60,650 nt of DNA, from the IMG/VR virus record IMGVR_UViG_3300034082_002390, one strand, 5' to 3'. Position 1 is the first letter of the stretch. The number at the start of each line of letters is the position of its first letter. Below the pieces are notes generated by a model, which was not told the origin of the DNA, ran no database searches, and saw nothing but the letters and a program-made list of their open reading frames with translations. Below, in pieces: positions 37,566 through 43,392 of the stretch. The DNA comes from an uncultured virus (IMG/VR IMGVR_UViG_3300034082_002390) (Duplodnaviria; Heunggongvirae; Uroviricota; Caudoviricetes). A program made the position numbers and the translations under genes.

Positions 37566-39131
37566 TTATAAAGTCATTACAAACGGTAAAGGTTCAATAA
37601 AGGTGTCTTGATGATCTCGCATTTGTGTGTCAAGTTCCACGTGATAATTTTGCAATAACTGTAACATACGAACCACTAGCAATGTGGCCATCACAAGATC
37701 GTCAGTTTCTCCTTGCTTGGCTGCATAACCTGCACCCGAGGCAACAAAATTCTTGAACTCTGTAATTAAACTTCTACTGGAAATTGCCATTCTACCAGTT
37801 TCTATTAGATGTTTGACTTTTGCACAAGCAGCTAGTTTAGGTTTGTTTGATGTATTAAATCCCTTGCGATACTTGCGCGATCCTCCTGCGCCCGCTTCAC
37901 TAAGAAAATATCCTTGGATGTTGTCTTCTCCGTATTCTGCAATCGAGATCAAGGCAGCTTCGCCAATTGTATTGTTTTCTACTGTGTAATAAATGCTTTT
38001 TGGAGATTTAACAACATCGTTGATGTGCGATATAATTGATGCCAGGATACGAATTTGTGTGGGTATATCTGTTTTGTTGTGGCGCCACTCAGCTACTTGT
38101 ACTGTGGTGTTTGCTTCAAACACTTGGATGGCTGCCGGATCACCGCCTGTGCCCAGACTTGGATCAAGTCCAATAGCATAAATTTTACCTGCTTCGGGTT
38201 TTCGATACCAACGCACTTCCCCAGTTTTGTACAAGGGTTCAACTCCTTCAAGTTCAATTAATTTAGCAGGTGCAATCAGTGTTTCATCGGCAATAATGAA
38301 TTCGCAATCCATCTCTCGGCGAAATCGATCCACACCAAGAGCAGCACGTTGTTGTGCGGCCCAGCTCTCGTCACGGTCCGGGTGTTCATTCCAAAAACTA
38401 CGATATGCTTTGAAACCATTGACACCTAGTCTAGTTGGATTGCCGTACTCATCTTCGCACTTGTTGGCGCCTTTCCACAACAAGGCAAATTGATCTTCGT
38501 CGCTGTTGGGAGTGCTTGTGATAATTGCCTTACCACCAGTGGCCAGTGTGGGGCTGATAGAAGTCCAAAATTCTGTAGCAATAGTTGGTCGCACAAACGC
38601 GAACTCGTCAGCATACAATAAGGATATAGACATACCACGACCAGTGTTTTCAGTAGTGGTAGCACTTACAATACGACTACCGTTATCAAACTCTAAACTA
38701 CCTTTGTTGTAACTGGTAACACCTGCTCGAATATGGTTTGGCACGCTTTCATATGCATACCGAACACGTTGCATAATTTCCTGGGCACCGGTGTACTTGT
38801 GTGCAGCCACTAAAATAGTCGAGTCGGGCACAAACATTGCATACCATAACAAGTAACCCGCAGCTGAAGTAGATTTACCAGTCTGTCGAGGCATCAAACT
38901 AATACTGTAACGATAGTTGTGATATACCTCAATCAAGCGCCGTTGATACTCAAAAGGATGATATACCATTCGTCCACGAGTAGGGTGCTGAATATAGAAA
39001 AAATGGTCCATGAAATACAACGGACCGGTAATGGGGTCAGCACACTTGGCAAACTCGTCCAGTTGCTCGTCTGAGTAAGACACCAGTTGATATGGCGACT
39101 TTGTTAGAACGGACTCTAACACCTTGCTCAT
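37566..39131 (-). CDS. terL: Terminase large subunit (gp17-like)
   Basis: PRQTGKST Walker A, LYADEFAF Walker B, ITSTPN, GLDPSLG, DDLVMA. Confidence 0.95.
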   Translation of the reverse strand: MSKVLESVLTKSPYQLVSYSDEQLDEFAKCADPITGPLYFMDHFFYIQHPTRGRMVYHPFEYQRRLIEVYHNYRYSISLMPRQTGKSTSAAGYLLWYAMFVPDSTILVAAHKYTGAQEIMQRVRYAYESVPNHIRAGVTSYNKGSLEFDNGSRIVSATTTENTGRGMSISLLYADEFAFVRPTIATEFWTSISPTLATGGKAIITSTPNSDEDQFALLWKGANKCEDEYGNPTRLGVNGFKAYRSFWNEHPDRDESWAAQQRAALGVDRFRREMDCEFIIADETLIAPAKLIELEGVEPLYKTGEVRWYRKPEAGKIYAIGLDPSLGTGGDPAAIQVFEANTTVQVAEWRHNKTDIPTQIRILASIISHINDVVKSPKSIYYTVENNTIGEAALISIAEYGEDNIQGYFLSEAGAGGSRKYRKGFNTSNKPKLAACAKVKHLIETGRMAISSRSLITEFKNFVASGAGYAAKQGETDDLVMATLLVVRMLQLLQNYHVELDTQMRDHQDTFIEPLPFVMTL

Positions 39132-39201
39132 GAGTTGTTACCTTTTGGGGATTTTTTGATCATGCAGTATTTACACGACCTTTAGCGCAGAAAGTTATTA
39201 G

Positions 39202-39286
39202 TGGTCACTTTGTAGTTCACGGTAGCGAATCGCTTGCTACGCCCAGCACCCGGGCGCCCTCGCAACTAGTGCGGTCCTAAGGGTGT
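39202..39286 (-). ncRNA. Candidate structured RNA (three helices plus possible pseudoknot)
   Basis: GC-rich intergenic island with CCCT/AGGG enclosing a CGCA/TGCG hairpin, a GCCC/GGGC hairpin and a GTAG/CTAC stem; strand inferred from the operon. Confidence 0.5.
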
Positions 39287-39297
39287 TCGTTTAATGT

Positions 39298-39732
39298 TTA
39301 GTTGCACCAACTTTGCTTGGCTTCGCCGTAGTATTCGCGTGCAAAACCGTTGGCAATAAGTCCCTGACGCAGGCTACGGCCATCTAGAATGATGTCACCC
39401 AGCACACGACCGCCAAACTTGTCCCAGGCATACAGTGTGACCTGTCGTTGCTGACTGGCAGCAATTGCATTTTTGGTAAATTCAGTGGCTGCTAGACCGC
39501 GGGCATTTTCTTGCGGGCACTGAGCACGATGTCCTTTTTCAGGAGTGTCTACACCAAAGATTCGTACAGCCAGTTCGGGCTTGAGGGGTGCAGGCAAGAA
39601 TGGTGCAGAGATCACAACTGTGTCCCCATCGTTGATGCGCACAATTTGTGCGTCATAGGTTGCACCTTTTGGTGTTTTTTGTGCCATGGCCAGCACAGGT
39701 ACGATGAGTAAGAGTAGTAGTAGTTTTTTCAT
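39298..39732 (-). CDS. Thermonuclease (SNase) family protein with signal peptide
   Basis: DGDTV, VRIFGVDTPE, DKFGGRVLG, LIANGFA. Confidence 0.9.
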   Translation of the reverse strand: MKKLLLLLLIVPVLAMAQKTPKGATYDAQIVRINDGDTVVISAPFLPAPLKPELAVRIFGVDTPEKGHRAQCPQENARGLAATEFTKNAIAASQQRQVTLYAWDKFGGRVLGDIILDGRSLRQGLIANGFAREYYGEAKQSWCN

Positions 39733-41415: not shown

Positions 41416-43392
41416 TTACTTGCTGTAACGTTGGTACAATTCCCACAACCGAGACTCTGAGCTTTCAGCTACGCTTGTTTGGCGATCTTGATGTGCAATA
41501 ACTGGAATAGTTGTTTGCCCAGTTGTCTTACGACCGTTAAGCCCGCCACTCAATGTGTTTACCATGGTGTCTGTGTTGCTGTAGTTGGGGTTTGGTGAGT
41601 TGGCAAGTTCTTCGTCAACTTGTTGGCAGCCGCATGCACTTTCACCGCAAGTGGAACAAGCATGCTGACCGCTTTCTTCACCACCTAAGCCAGCCATTTT
41701 TAACAGTTGCGCTAGTTGTTCAGCATCTTCATTGGTGGCGTTAACGCTCAAAGACTTTGTACCATCTTCGCCCACGCTGAGATTAATACTCATGCCTTCG
41801 GTTAATACTGTGTCTAACTTTTTGTCAAAGCTTTCAGCTATCGCACTTTCGTAAACGCCTTTGCCAAAGACACCACCTTTAGCGGCTTTGGCAGGTGCAG
41901 TAGCAACAGATCCAGCTACTGTTGTTTCTTCAACTTCTTTTTTCTTTTCAGTTTTTTTCTTTTCAGGCAGACCTTTGTGCTTGGTGCTAGCAAAGTCTTC
42001 AGCATCTTTCTTGCCCATGCTTTTGGCTACCTTGGCAACTTCTTTAGAAGCAGGCTTTTCACCTTTTTGTGCGGCATGAACCATGCCCATGAACTTTTGT
42101 TGTTTTTTGCTTACTGCTTTTTCGTTAACTTGCTCTTCGTCTTTGTCGGCTTTGGTAATCTCGTATCCAGCTTTCTTCAACATGGACATGGCCTGTTTGA
42201 TTTCATCGCTTTCGTTGTCGCTTTCTTTGGTCATTAATTTTGACTTACCACTTGGGCCCTTGGCTCCGATGCTTTTGCCAGCGCCTTTGCCAGCTGGACG
42301 ACCACGTCCACGCTTTTCGCCCGAAGCTGGAGCATCATCATCTGAGCCCACACTGTGTCCAGTATTAGGGTCAACTCTGCGTGTTACTTTGCGGCCAGTT
42401 GCTGTGTGTTCAATATCATGTAATGCTCCACGCTCAGTGCTACCAACTTTGGGTCGTTCTACACGGGGACGCTTGTGTGCAGTGAATGGACTGTTGTCTT
42501 CTGCTTCGTCAGCAACAACTTTTTTGCCGCGGCCCAGAGCCTGCTTCATGGCTTCTGCTGCTACATCGCCCAGCATTTCGTCAACTTCTTTCTTGGCGCC
42601 GGCAATCTTGTCAGCGAAAGTGATCTTGTCTGTAGGGGGTGCCAATGCGGCAAAAGCTTCTTTGTCAACATTTTCGCTTACGTTTAGTTCTTGTTCAAGG
42701 CGATTGCTAATCCATTCATATGGATCACCATCTCGAGCTTTTGCTGTACCATAAGGCATTTCGCCACTGTCGCTGTAGTAATCAAATAGTGCATTATACA
42801 GTGCATCACTTAGATCACCATCTTGTTTGAATTTAGCAACATCGCCGGACATGGATCCAATGATTTGTTTGATACCGCCGTGTGCTTCTTTCATGTGGGC
42901 CATTGGCTTTTTACCAGTTTGTGGCATGCCAACTTTCTTTTGTAAGTCACGAATCATGTCTTCATCACTGCCGTGTCCCAATGTGTCCAGTGCTTTGCCA
43001 GCACCTTTTTTGACTGCACTGCCAACTTTCTTCACAGTGTCAAGAATGCCTTCGGCAACTTCTTTGTCTGCCACTGCTTTCTTGAATGTTTCTTTTTTGT
43101 TGCCATCTTTATCAACGTCAAGAAAATCTGGCTTGGCGCCTTCGTTTGTGGCAGGACCACGAGTGTCCTTGACGCCGGCAGCTTTCAACATTCTAGCACG
43201 ATCATCGTAGCCGGCTGTGCCAGGCTTGATGTCACCAGAGGCTTTTTTCAACTCAGCCTTTACTCGCGGTGATGCATCACTAGCATCAACATGCTTCATT
43301 GTTGTTTTTGCTTGATGGCTTGCGCCCTCATTCAAAGTTTGTTTTGCAGCCAAGTCACTCAGCTTTTTGTTTAAGTCGTAAAAAAATGTCAT
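41416..43392 (-). CDS. Lys-rich modular putative head protein (DUF3008-like segment, AT-hook)
   Basis: AVSKKQQKFMG..DFASTKHKGLP; KRGRGRP; DVDKDG; many (L/V/T/M)xE sites. Confidence 0.65.
   Translation of the reverse strand: MTFFYDLNKKLSDLAAKQTLNEGASHQAKTTMKHVDASDASPRVKAELKKASGDIKPGTAGYDDRARMLKAAGVKDTRGPATNEGAKPDFLDVDKDGNKKETFKKAVADKEVAEGILDTVKKVGSAVKKGAGKALDTLGHGSDEDMIRDLQKKVGMPQTGKKPMAHMKEAHGGIKQIIGSMSGDVAKFKQDGDLSDALYNALFDYYSDSGEMPYGTAKARDGDPYEWISNRLEQELNVSENVDKEAFAALAPPTDKITFADKIAGAKKEVDEMLGDVAAEAMKQALGRGKKVVADEAEDNSPFTAHKRPRVERPKVGSTERGALHDIEHTATGRKVTRRVDPNTGHSVGSDDDAPASGEKRGRGRPAGKGAGKSIGAKGPSGKSKLMTKESDNESDEIKQAMSMLKKAGYEITKADKDEEQVNEKAVSKKQQKFMGMVHAAQKGEKPASKEVAKVAKSMGKKDAEDFASTKHKGLPEKKKTEKKKEVEETTVAGSVATAPAKAAKGGVFGKGVYESAIAESFDKKLDTVLTEGMSINLSVGEDGTKSLSVNATNEDAEQLAQLLKMAGLGGEESGQHACSTCGESACGCQQVDEELANSPNPNYSNTDTMVNTLSGGLNGRKTTGQTTIPVIAHQDRQTSVAESSESRLWELYQRYSK

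What the first reader, a model, noticed from the sequence alone, without database searches (positions are those of the whole stretch)
39202..39286. Compact, possibly pseudoknotted structured RNA between the late head operon and the terminase gene
Seen: a GC-rich island in otherwise AT-rich intergenic DNA. Minus strand: ACCCT-TAGGAC-CGCA-CTAGT-TGCG-AGGG-C-GCCC-GGGTGCT-GGGC-GTAG-CAAGCG-ATTCGCTAC-CGTGAA-CTAC-AAAGTGACCA. Three consecutive helices form. The middle hairpin loop (GGT-GCT) can pair with the 3' tail (AGT-G-ACC) as a pseudoknot, and the tail ends in ACCA. The TAGGAC bulge and ATTCG loop resemble D- and T-loop sequences. It is not a cloverleaf and has no U-tract. Inference: a phage ncRNA, such as a tRNA-like structure, ribozyme, 3' processing element or packaging-related RNA, beside a nuclease gene and terL. 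An alternative GTAGC/GCTAC pairing also exists.
Basis: partly seen in the sequence, partly recalled or inferred. Interest (0 to 1): 0.8.

Follow-up and report, generated by a model that had tools for sequence, protein, structure and literature searches.

The report
Phage pseudoknot RNA antisense to 23S
The flagged stretch is a real, folded, roughly 86-base phage RNA whose never-changing exposed bases are the mirror image of a universally conserved part of the bacterial large ribosomal RNA, so the phage probably pairs this RNA with its host's ribosomal RNA, which nobody has tested.

Summary
The sequence is exactly as described (minus strand, 39202-39287). Single-sequence folding energy gives no support (z 0.08).

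It matches no Rfam 15 family and no tRNA. It occurs once per jumbo-phage genome, always just after a same-strand gene, but beside many different genes. Close relatives have the same nuclease-terL junction without it.

Key result: the invariant unpaired bases are antisense to E. coli 23S rRNA 1909-1937 (helix 69 and the junction after it), in three blocks of 8, 11 and 9 bases. At least 120 more viral contigs share the two main motifs in other architectures, some ending in an intrinsic terminator.

My reading is a loop-presenting antisense RNA aimed at host 23S rRNA. The pairing is shown on paper only, and its effect is inferred. The tRNA-like, packaging and ACCA-end ideas are not supported.

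This scan's earlier notes report the same reading on other genomes. I reached it before seeing them. I found it in no paper or RNA database searched.

The parts
39202..39287 (-). Whole RNA element as conserved across contexts: leader AACA through the pseudoknot 3' strand plus A, 86 nt
   Evidence: Sequence. The conserved block has sharp borders in different flanks. CM R1 scores it 105.2 bits, E 1.5e-29, and it is the only significant match in the window.
39284..39287 (-). 5' leader AACA (family consensus RAAYA), unpaired
   Evidence: Columns 8-11 of A2 are invariant or at least 90% conserved in differing flanks.
39280..39283 (-). P1 5' strand CCCU, pairing with AGGG at 39257-39260
   Evidence: 63 of 63 sequences paired, but the pair is invariant because the search pattern fixed it. 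Variant L316 has CACAC/GUGUG there instead.
39257..39260 (-). P1 3' strand AGGG
39274..39279 (-). Asymmetric bulge UAGGAC. This is the unpaired core of motif A and is invariant.
   Evidence: Invariant columns in A2. Lies inside the 11-nt antisense block to 23S 1920-1930.
39261..39273 (-). P1a hairpin CGCA-CUAGU-UGCG
   Evidence: Covaries with CGUAAC/GUUACG forms: pair 24-39 is CG in 45 and UA in 18 sequences. The loop and 3' strand UAGUUGCG are antisense to 23S 1909-1916.
39241..39255 (-). P2 hairpin GCCC-GGGUGCU-GGGC. Loop 39245-39251 supplies the 5' strand of the pseudoknot.
   Evidence: 3 of 4 pairs change on both sides and 98.4% of cells are paired.
39203..39209 (-). Pseudoknot 3' strand AGU-G-ACC, pairing with P2-loop bases GGU and GCU
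   Evidence: Helix 4 has 89.2% of cells paired; pair 60-113 is CG in 39 and GC in 17 sequences. Other variants are GCCACU/AGU-GU-GGC, GCUACU/AGUAGC and GAACCC/GGGUUC.
39212..39240 (-). P3 (GUAG/CUAC) enclosing internal loop CAA/GAA and P4 (GCG/CGU)
   Evidence: All 4 P3 pairs and all 3 P4 pairs change on both sides.
39222..39230 (-). Loop L4 AUUCGCUAC (motif B), 9 nt, invariant
   Evidence: Invariant in A2 and A4. UUCGCUACC (39221-39229) is antisense to 23S 1929-1937.
39272..39282 (-). Antisense block 1: CCUUAGGACCG, complementary to E. coli 23S 1920-1930
39261..39268 (-). Antisense block 2: UAGUUGCG, complementary to 23S 1909-1916 in the same gapless register as block 1, with one G.U at 1911
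   Evidence: (offsets 12-19)
39221..39229 (-). Antisense block 3: UUCGCUACC, complementary to 23S 1929-1937
39298..39732 (-). Upstream gene: SNase-like nuclease, 144 aa. Its stop lies 10 nt before the leader. It is a neighbour, not part of the element.
   Evidence: PF00565 at 1.1e-09 and phrog_452. The same gene abuts terL without the RNA in L002 and L006.
37566..39131 (-). Downstream gene: large terminase, starting 70 nt after the element. It is a neighbour, not part of the element.
   Evidence: Terminase_6N/6C and phrog_36964 at 2.8e-116.

Best explanation
The element is a member of a large, uncatalogued family of phage RNAs that act as structured antisense to the host's 23S ribosomal RNA. 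It is transcribed as the 3' untranslated end of whatever gene lies upstream. In this window that is the nuclease gene.

The fold is P1 with a six-base bulge and the P1a hairpin, then P2 locked by a pseudoknot to the 3' tail, then P3/P4 with a nine-base loop. This scaffold holds three stretches in or next to unpaired positions. Together they complement 23S rRNA 1909-1937 (E. coli numbering): the loop and 3' strand of helix 69 and the strand that follows it.

The two outer arms are in 'parallel' order: the 5' arm pairs with the 5' part of the target. They therefore must contact the target as separate loop-to-strand helices, not as one continuous duplex.

Most likely the RNA captures this stretch of 23S rRNA while it is still unfolded (nascent) or flexible (free 50S). 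That would disturb helix 69, the main bridge to the small subunit, or mark the rRNA for a double-strand nuclease.

Shown here: the RNA family, its fold, one copy per genome, its position after genes, and the complementarity and its statistics. Inferred: that pairing happens in cells, which state of the rRNA is bound, and what follows.
For: (1) Fold: 92.9% of cells are paired against 28-44% when slid. None of 500 shuffles reach the paired share or covariation score. 14 of 28 pairs covary, pseudoknot included.

(2) The invariant unpaired motifs have single antisense sites in E. coli rrlH, one base apart: 1920-1928 and 1930-1937. In the window the blocks extend to 11 and 9 nt.

(3) A third block, UAGUUGCG, pairs with 1909-1916 in the same gapless register. 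It is present in about 58-66% of 53 J-type segments. By my own reading of the sequences, the CGUAAC subtype carries UAGUUACG shifted by 2 nt.

(4) Null test: 3 of 200,000 letter permutations of the two motifs give adjacent antisense sites in the rrnH operon.

(5) Among about 1050 windows of the operon, the best duplex for the 31-nt 5' segment is at 23S about 1892-1931: -40.1 kcal/mol against a mean of -18.1 (sd 4.8).

(6) A second architecture in at least 120 viral contigs keeps the same two motifs. Motif A complementarity extends 3' by 2-4 more matching bases in 69 of 96 distinct sequences. The J-type model finds 72 matches in the 100 loci searched, at E up to 0.01.

(7) The 18-nt target is identical in E. 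coli and in 28 of 61 genomes sampled from a distant phylum; the reversed control gives 0. That fits motif invariance across phages whose terL proteins are only 73-82% identical.

(8) One strong copy in each of 5 records searched, including G002 (100% complete) and G003 (97%), and one in the window.

(9) Precedent: a synthetic PNA against helix 69 blocked translation and E. coli growth (Kulik 2017, as described in a passage of PMC12828698).
Against: No expression or binding data exist. The two RNA runs found did not cover the element.

The single-sequence MFE is no better than shuffles.

Nested cofolding with 23S 1900-1945 gives ddG -18.2 kcal/mol against a mean of -7.8 (sd 3.4), but one of 197 other rRNA windows reached -19.7.

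An 11-nt exact antisense match alone is seen in about 5% of shuffles.

Parts of the arms are sequestered in P1, P1a and P4, so pairing needs strand invasion.

In the mature 50S most of 1920-1937 is paired or buried, and U1915 is modified (recalled, not tested).

A phage needs working ribosomes, so the benefit is unclear.

E. coli stands in for an unknown host.

P1 invariance was imposed by my search pattern.

The motif set was defined before the rRNA idea, but the idea itself came from recall, so the test is post hoc.
Confidence: 0.55

Rival explanations
1. A self-contained functional RNA (self-cleaving ribozyme, ligand aptamer or protein-binding RNA). Its invariant bulge and loops would form a tertiary core or binding site, and the match to 23S rRNA would be coincidence or mimicry without pairing.
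For: The RNA has a compact pseudoknotted fold with about 30 invariant unpaired or junction bases, typical of ribozymes and riboswitches. It sits between genes, as many phage ribozymes do. No Rfam family is hit, so it would be a new class.
Against: Three separate conserved blocks fall colinearly or adjacently on one 29-nt stretch of 23S rRNA, and 3 of 200,000 permutations reproduce even the two-block adjacency. The same motifs persist in a different architecture where P1, P2 and the pseudoknot are absent, so they are not held by one tertiary fold. Complementarity extends in the direction the rRNA predicts.
Confidence: 0.17
2. A cis-acting 3'-end element of the upstream mRNA, acting as a terminator, a 3' stabiliser or a processing signal.
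For: It always lies 2-41 nt after a same-strand stop codon in most contexts. 23 of 63 distinct J-type 3' flanks have a run of 4 or more T right after the tail. In the second architecture, motif B is the loop of an intrinsic terminator. Sigma-70-like promoters often follow it (read).
Against: Each of the 5 large records searched (176-353 kb, including a complete 353-kb and a 97%-complete 349-kb genome) has one strong copy, although such genomes have many transcription units. Terminators do not need about 30 invariant bases. The window copy has no T run and no terminator call on its strand. 40 of 63 flanks lack a T run.
Confidence: 0.1
3. A tRNA-like structure or packaging RNA tied to the nuclease and terL genes.
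For: In the window, L007 and L063 it lies directly before terL. The window copy ends in ACCA.
Against: ARAGORN finds no tRNA, and Rfam gives no hit, including no tRNA or phage pRNA. The ACC covaries as part of the pseudoknot. Only 3 of 64 downstream contexts are terL. In G003 and G006 the element is 160 kb from terL.
Confidence: 0.03
4. A DNA-level element: a captured piece of rDNA, a recombination or attachment site aimed at rrl, or a nuclease target.
For: At the DNA level, 19 of 22 bases match rDNA 1909-1930, and nuclease genes lie upstream in 23 of 51 contexts.
Against: Helices covary with G.U pairs that would be C.A on the other strand (pair 62-110 is G.U in 49 of 63), so one strand folds. 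The element always has the sense of the upstream gene. The rDNA-like pieces are permuted and split. These are large phages with no sign of integration in the stretches seen.
Confidence: 0.03

Closest known systems
Loop-presenting antisense RNAs of plasmids and bacteria (CopA/CopT of R1, RNA I/RNA II of ColE1, OxyS-fhlA two-loop contact); recalled
   Same: Short conserved complementary stretches are displayed in hairpin loops or bulges of a stable scaffold. Contact is expected to start as loop-to-target helices at two or more sites.
   Different: The target is ribosomal RNA, not an mRNA or primer. The arms are permuted relative to a plain antisense copy. The scaffold contains an H-type pseudoknot. 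The RNA is encoded by phages and is invariant across distant phages.
3'UTR-derived, seed-plus-terminator base-pairing small RNAs of bacteria (CpxQ, SroC, DapZ type); recalled
   Same: It lies directly after a coding gene with no room for its own promoter. The second architecture ends in a GC hairpin plus U run.
   Different: The window's type has no terminator or U tail. The seeds match rRNA. No Hfq or ProQ link is testable here.
Synthetic antisense PNA against helix 69 of E. coli 23S rRNA (Kulik et al. 2017, seen only as described in PMC12828698)
   Same: Same target helix. It shows that antisense to helix 69 can block translation and growth.
   Different: It is man-made, linear, and covers only helix 69. 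The phage RNA is natural and folded, and also covers 1925-1937.
Exon-binding sites EBS2/EBS1 of group II introns and the two-site tRNA recognition of T-box leaders; recalled
   Same: Two separate loops of a folded RNA pair with two neighbouring target stretches in 'parallel' order: 5' loop with 5' target part, 3' loop with 3' target part.
   Different: No intron domains, no catalytic domain V and no T-box sequence are present, and there is no Rfam hit. At about 86 nt it is far too small for a group II ribozyme.
Guide and chaperone snoRNAs/sRNAs of eukaryotes and archaea that pair with pre-rRNA (U3, U8, box C/D, H/ACA); recalled
   Same: A small RNA with short antisense stretches to conserved rRNA, and possible action on nascent rRNA.
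   Different: It has no C/D or H/ACA boxes, and its arm order is opposite to an H/ACA pocket. No such guides are known in bacteria. It is encoded by a virus, presumably to the host's cost.

Membership tests
tRNA / tRNA-like structure | Cloverleaf or L-shape mimic detectable by tRNA finders | tested here: not met
   ARAGORN finds 0 genes in the whole window. There is no Rfam tRNA or TLS hit even at E up to 10.
tRNA / tRNA-like structure | Conserved single-stranded 3' NCCA acceptor end | tested here: not met
   The ACC of the window is paired in the pseudoknot and is replaced by AGC, GGC or GGU in relatives.
Any Rfam 15 family (ribozymes, riboswitches, phage pRNA, Y RNA, group I/II intron parts and others) | Covariance-model match at the gathering score or at E up to 10 | tested here: not met
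   0 matches in the window at gathering. 0 at E up to 10 on 39050-39400. 0 at E up to 1 on 12 loci of the sister architectures.
H-type pseudoknotted RNA | A hairpin loop pairs with a downstream single strand, supported by compensatory changes | tested here: met
   The pseudoknot helix has 89.2% of cells paired, and pair 60-113 is CG in 39 and GC in 17 sequences. Further variant pairs were seen by eye.
Trans-acting base-pairing (antisense) RNA | Conserved, at least partly unpaired seed(s) complementary to a defined target | tested here: met
   Blocks of 11, 8 and 9 nt match 23S 1920-1930, 1909-1916 and 1929-1937. Permutation null: 3 of 200,000.
Trans-acting base-pairing (antisense) RNA | Discrete transcript and demonstrated pairing with the target in cells | not testable with these tools
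   The only RNA runs found (X1, X2) did not cover the element.
3'UTR-derived small RNA with intrinsic terminator | GC-rich terminal hairpin followed by a U run | tested here: not met
   The window copy has no U run and no terminator call on the minus strand at 39132-39202. It is met in the sister architecture, where the hairpin has 98.7% of cells paired and is followed by T runs.
Self-cleaving ribozyme (new class) | Site-specific self-scission | not testable with these tools
   There is no match to known classes. Activity needs a bench assay.
Intrinsic terminator / generic 3' stabiliser | Many copies per genome at operon ends, with little sequence constraint | tested here: not met
   Each of 5 large records has one strong copy, and so does the window. 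About 30 columns are invariant.

The most novel reading that the evidence does not exclude
Phages of many lineages encode a dedicated RNA that attacks or reprogrammes the host ribosome by pairing directly with helix 69 and its flank in 23S rRNA. The RNA would trap nascent or free large-subunit rRNA, so that new 50S subunits fail to mature or join, or the rRNA is cut and recycled. That would be an RNA-only mode of host takeover acting on ribosomal RNA itself, and this jumbo-phage pseudoknot would be one of several scaffolds that evolved around the same antisense core.
Probability: 0.35. Interest if true: 0.92.

Novelty: categorically new. Interest (0 to 1): 0.85.

Why it matters
If the pairing is real, this would be the first natural viral RNA I know of that targets bacterial ribosomal RNA directly. 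Its target is a universally conserved site that synthetic antisense agents already exploit.

It would open a testable question about how phages handle host ribosomes: assembly block, subunit anti-association, or rRNA recycling in nutrient-poor lakes. It would explain a widespread, unannotated RNA family in at least 200 viral contigs. It would also offer natural, evolution-tested scaffolds for presenting antisense to helix 69.

Even if the rRNA reading fails, this is a new, strongly covarying pseudoknotted RNA class with about 30 invariant bases, which would be worth a ribozyme or ligand screen.

Tried and rejected
1. Single-sequence thermodynamics shows no signal (z 0.08 and -0.44).

2. Rfam at gathering and at permissive thresholds gives nothing, on the window and on 12 sister loci.

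3. ARAGORN finds nothing.

4. BLAST of the window region and of the J-type and three type-A elements against 50,697 isolate phage records shows no element match. The only hits were two Pseudomonas jumbo phages over terL.

5. The window's own assembly is not held. The nearest record, G001, is a 23% fragment without the locus.

6. RNA runs: two metatranscriptome runs with small word shares, held as contigs, did not cover 38959-39587, so nothing can be said about expression.

7. Five further large relatives (37-60% complete) gave no CM match. This is uninformative because they are fragments.

8. Group I intron or homing cassette idea: there is no space for a 5' intron part before the nuclease gene and no intron hit. 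Rejected.

9. Read-through signal idea: an in-frame TAG lies inside the element (read). Rejected.

11. Other conserved parts (tail, P2 loop, leader) show only chance-level 6-7-mers against rRNA.

12. The 20-nt segment around motif B has its best RNAduplex score on 16S about 1390-1410, not on 23S. Its variable flanks dominate that score.

13. Literature: six full-text searches, by motif letters, by the 18-mer target, and by phrases on 23S antisense, helix 69 and phage RNAs, found primers, I-CeuI cloning sites and unrelated work, but no description of this RNA. The catalogue of Fremin et al. 2023 (PMC10690425) was read as abstract and outline. Six supplement files were searched without a hit, and files 1, 2 and 4 could not be searched, so the motif may be listed there unnamed.

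14. The MAG holding one copy has no 18-mer target hit, probably because it lacks rRNA genes. Uninformative.

Full report
THE OBSERVATION. It lies in a 166-nt gap between a staphylococcal-nuclease-like gene (39298-39732; PF00565 at 1.1e-09, phrog_452) and the large terminase gene (37566-39131; Terminase_6N/6C, phrog_36964 at 2.8e-116). No ORF of 40 aa or more overlaps it. GC reaches 0.60 there against 0.39-0.43 in the rest of the gap, though nearby coding DNA reaches 0.575. On its own the sequence does not fold better than shuffles: MFE -25.5 kcal/mol, z 0.08, with 102 of 200 shuffles as good. The plus strand gives z -0.44. ARAGORN finds no tRNA in the window. Rfam 15 gives no hit at gathering score, nor at E up to 10 on 39050-39400.

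RELATIVES AND FOLD. Eighty loci encoding terL relatives (69-85% identity) were fetched. Only L007 and L063 carry the element before terL. In L063 the flanks differ, and the conserved block has sharp borders.

The invariant 27-mer occurs in 61 viral contigs. A degenerate pattern occurs in 107 stretches, of which 64 are distinct. The window has one copy.

On an alignment of 63 distinct sequences (A2), RNAalifold recovers P1, P2, P3 and P4. It has 92.9% of cells paired, against 28-44% with partners slid 1-3 columns. Its covariation score is 0.360 against 0.081 or less when slid. None of 500 shuffles reach the paired share, the number of doubly changed cells (258) or the score. The count of pairs with double changes (14) is reached by 22 of 500 shuffles.

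- Three of four P2 pairs change on both sides, as do all four P3 pairs and all three P4 pairs.
- P1a pair 24-39 is CG in 45 sequences and UA in 18.
- Pseudoknot pair 60-113 is CG in 39 and GC in 17.
- P1 (CCCU/AGGG) never varies, but my pattern fixed it. Variant L316 has CACAC/GUGUG there.
- The window's ACC-A end is the pseudoknot strand and is AGC, GGC or GGU elsewhere.

WHERE IT SITS. A covariance model (R1) finds one significant match in the window: 105.2 bits, with the next best at 9.3 bits and E 0.94. It finds one strong match in each of five large records. These include G002 (352,754 bp, terminal repeats, 100% complete) and G003 (97% complete). G002 also has a weak partial second match of 22.9 bits.

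Three of these five records encode a terL 73-82% identical to the window's. In G003 and G006 that terL lies about 160 kb from the element. Five other fragments (37-60% complete) gave no match, which shows nothing.

Across 72 distinct contexts the element follows a same-strand open frame, and the stop usually lies 2-15 nt before P1. The 51 upstream proteins of 60 aa or more fall into 21 clusters. The 64 downstream proteins fall into 25 clusters.

- Upstream genes include a family with a borderline GIY-YIG hit (15 contexts), the SNase-like nuclease (7), a subtilase and tail-related proteins.
- Downstream genes include a 105-aa regulator-like protein behind its own sigma-70-like promoter (17), a sigma-factor-like protein (8) and terL (3).
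- By eye, some 3' flanks look like the end of a convergent gene (read).
- L002 and L006 (terL 83% identical) have the nuclease gene directly before terL without the element.

The element is therefore a single-copy module that is independent of its neighbours.

THE KEY FINDING. To see variation in P1, I scanned for the two invariant motifs with a non-C base before the first. Nearly all belong to another architecture, which I call type A. It has a 5' hairpin, then UUAGGACCG, then a hairpin with GUU in its loop, then an A-rich linker, then a GC hairpin whose loop is AAUUCGCUAC, followed by a U run.

On 64 distinct type-A sequences the last hairpin has 98.7% of cells paired and all six pairs covary. 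The whole two-helix structure scores 0.585, against 0.194 or less when slid. Type A also sits 6-40 nt after a same-strand gene in most cases, for example after the ribonucleotide reductase large subunit in 13 cases. A third form precedes a small basic protein gene. R1 finds 72 matches in the 100 loci searched (E up to 0.01, 17-57 bits), which argues for common descent. Rfam gives no hit on 12 such loci.

Two motifs that survive a change of scaffold suggested an external partner. I recalled that their complements resemble the 23S rRNA stretch after helix 69, so I fetched E. coli rrlH to test this.

- The complement of UUAGGACCG occurs once, at 23S 1920-1928. The complement of UUCGCUAC occurs once, at 1930-1937, one base further on.
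- In the window the exact antisense blocks are CCUUAGGACCG for 1920-1930 and UUCGCUACC for 1929-1937.
- In the same gapless register, UAGUUGCG (the P1a loop and 3' strand) pairs with 1909-1916, with one G.U. This holds in about 58-66% of 53 J-type segments. By my own reading of the sequences, the CGUAAC subtype carries UAGUUACG with a 2-nt shift.

Together the three blocks cover all of 1909-1937 except 1917-1919.

In type A, complementarity extends 3' of motif A by 2-4 bases, in the direction the rRNA predicts, in 69 of 96 distinct sequences.

Statistics:
- An 11-mer antisense match alone is unremarkable, being reached in 96 of 2000 shuffles.
- Adjacent antisense sites for both motifs arise in only 3 of 200,000 letter permutations.
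- The 31-nt 5' segment has its best duplex in the whole rrnH operon at 23S about 1892-1931: -40.1 kcal/mol against a mean of -18.1 (sd 4.8).
- Nested cofolding gives ddG -18.2 against a mean of -7.8 (sd 3.4), but one of 197 other windows reached -19.7. Nested folding also cannot place both arms.
- The 18-nt target is identical in 28 of 61 genomes sampled from a distant phylum, with a reversed control of 0. The other 33 may simply lack assembled rRNA genes.

HOW IT LIKELY WORKS. The arms are in 'parallel' order: the 5' arm pairs with the 5' part of the target. This is the order seen in group II EBS2/EBS1 and T-box recognition (recalled). It is not the order of a plain antisense, an H/ACA pocket or a hammerhead. 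The RNA must therefore touch the target through separate loop or bulge helices on a rigid scaffold. The six-base bulge, the P1a loop and the nine-base L4 loop would serve as toeholds.

Helix 69 forms the central bridge to the 30S subunit, and its loop is exposed in free 50S (established knowledge, recalled). A synthetic PNA against helix 69 blocks translation and growth of E. coli (Kulik 2017, as described in a passage of PMC12828698). I judge the most likely course to be capture of nascent or free-subunit 23S rRNA. Possible consequences are a block in 50S maturation or subunit joining, or cleavage of the paired region.

All of this is inference. No transcript or binding data could be obtained. 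Two RNA runs did not cover the element.

Against the reading: parts of the arms are paired within the RNA. Most of 1920-1937 is structured in mature subunits (recalled). A phage also needs working ribosomes.

RIVALS. There are four.

1. A self-contained ribozyme or aptamer, with the rRNA match a coincidence. This is weakened because the motifs outlive the scaffold and because three blocks are colinear.
2. A 3'-end element or terminator. This is weakened by one copy per 350-kb genome and by the lack of a U run in the window and in 40 of 63 flanks.
3. The tRNA-like or packaging RNA idea, which is contradicted.
4. A DNA-level element. This is contradicted by strand-specific G.U pairs (G.U in 49 of 63 at one pair) and by the fixed sense relative to the upstream gene.

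KNOWN OR NEW. No Rfam family matches. No isolate phage carries it. Six literature searches gave no description. The IMG/VR catalogue of candidate structured RNAs (PMC10690425; I read the abstract and outline and searched six supplement files) may list it unnamed in three files I could not search.

After I had reached this reading (note), this scan's own notes turned out to hold the same reading on other genomes. One of them describes a lake jumbo-phage pseudoknot that sounds like this family. These are unchecked AI notes and I do not count them as evidence. One of their leads, a paired anti-16S RNA, is not present in this window.

VERDICT. The functional guesses tied to tRNA, packaging and the neighbouring genes are not supported. 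The best reading is a new family of phage RNAs antisense to 23S rRNA helix 69 and its flank. I put confidence at about 0.55 for that mechanism and above 0.95 that it is a real structured RNA.

Noticed in passing
L254 1500-1575 (record G002, 76952-77023): The complete 352-kb genome that holds a full copy before terL also has a weak second match (22.9 bits). It has a P2-like hairpin, a UCGCUAC loop and an AAGUGAGCA tail but no 5' domain. It may be a decayed or divergent partial copy.
   Followed up: partly
L257, L266, L310, L320, L331, L336, L360, L361, L372 (about 60 nt either side of the motif): This is a third architecture. A promoter-like TTGATAAATA box is followed by AACUACC-UUUAGGACCG, a hairpin with the AAUUCGCUAC loop and a U run. 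After that come GGAG and the start of a 55-64 aa very basic protein (MRLFELFEAK...), which has no Pfam family above cut-off. It looks like a leader or attenuator arrangement.
   Followed up: partly
window 39298-39732 and L002, L006, L063 before terL: Different nuclease genes (SNase-like in the window, phrog_14168 nuclease in L063) sit directly before terL in related phages. 23 of 51 J-type upstream genes are nuclease-like. These may be free-standing homing-type nucleases that shuffle this region.
   Followed up: partly
L255 (NZ_JBBAKG010000001.1, 178632-181694): The only hit in 185,579 prokaryote genomes is on a 183-kb contig of a Haliscomenobacter MAG. It is followed by a sigma-70-like promoter and an AGGAG ribosome site. 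It is probably a phage contig binned into the MAG rather than a host clue.
   Followed up: no
window 41416-43392 (minus strand): A 658-aa protein has a DUF3008-like stretch (residues 426-479; 22.9 bits, just under the cut-off of 24) that matches several small PHROG families of unknown function.
   Followed up: no
window 37566-39131: The terminase aligns only to positions 434-887 of the 890-position phiKZ-type profile phrog_36964. Its only nucleotide matches among isolates are two 285-kb Pseudomonas jumbo phages at 67.6% identity. The window therefore comes from a distant, uncultured jumbo-phage lineage.
   Followed up: no
J-type loci, 10-40 nt after the element (for example L152, L164, L205, L231): A strong TTGACA-N17-TATACT promoter and an AGGAG site drive a conserved 105-aa protein (phrog_12534/phrog_639) right after the element in 17 of 64 contexts.
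   Followed up: no
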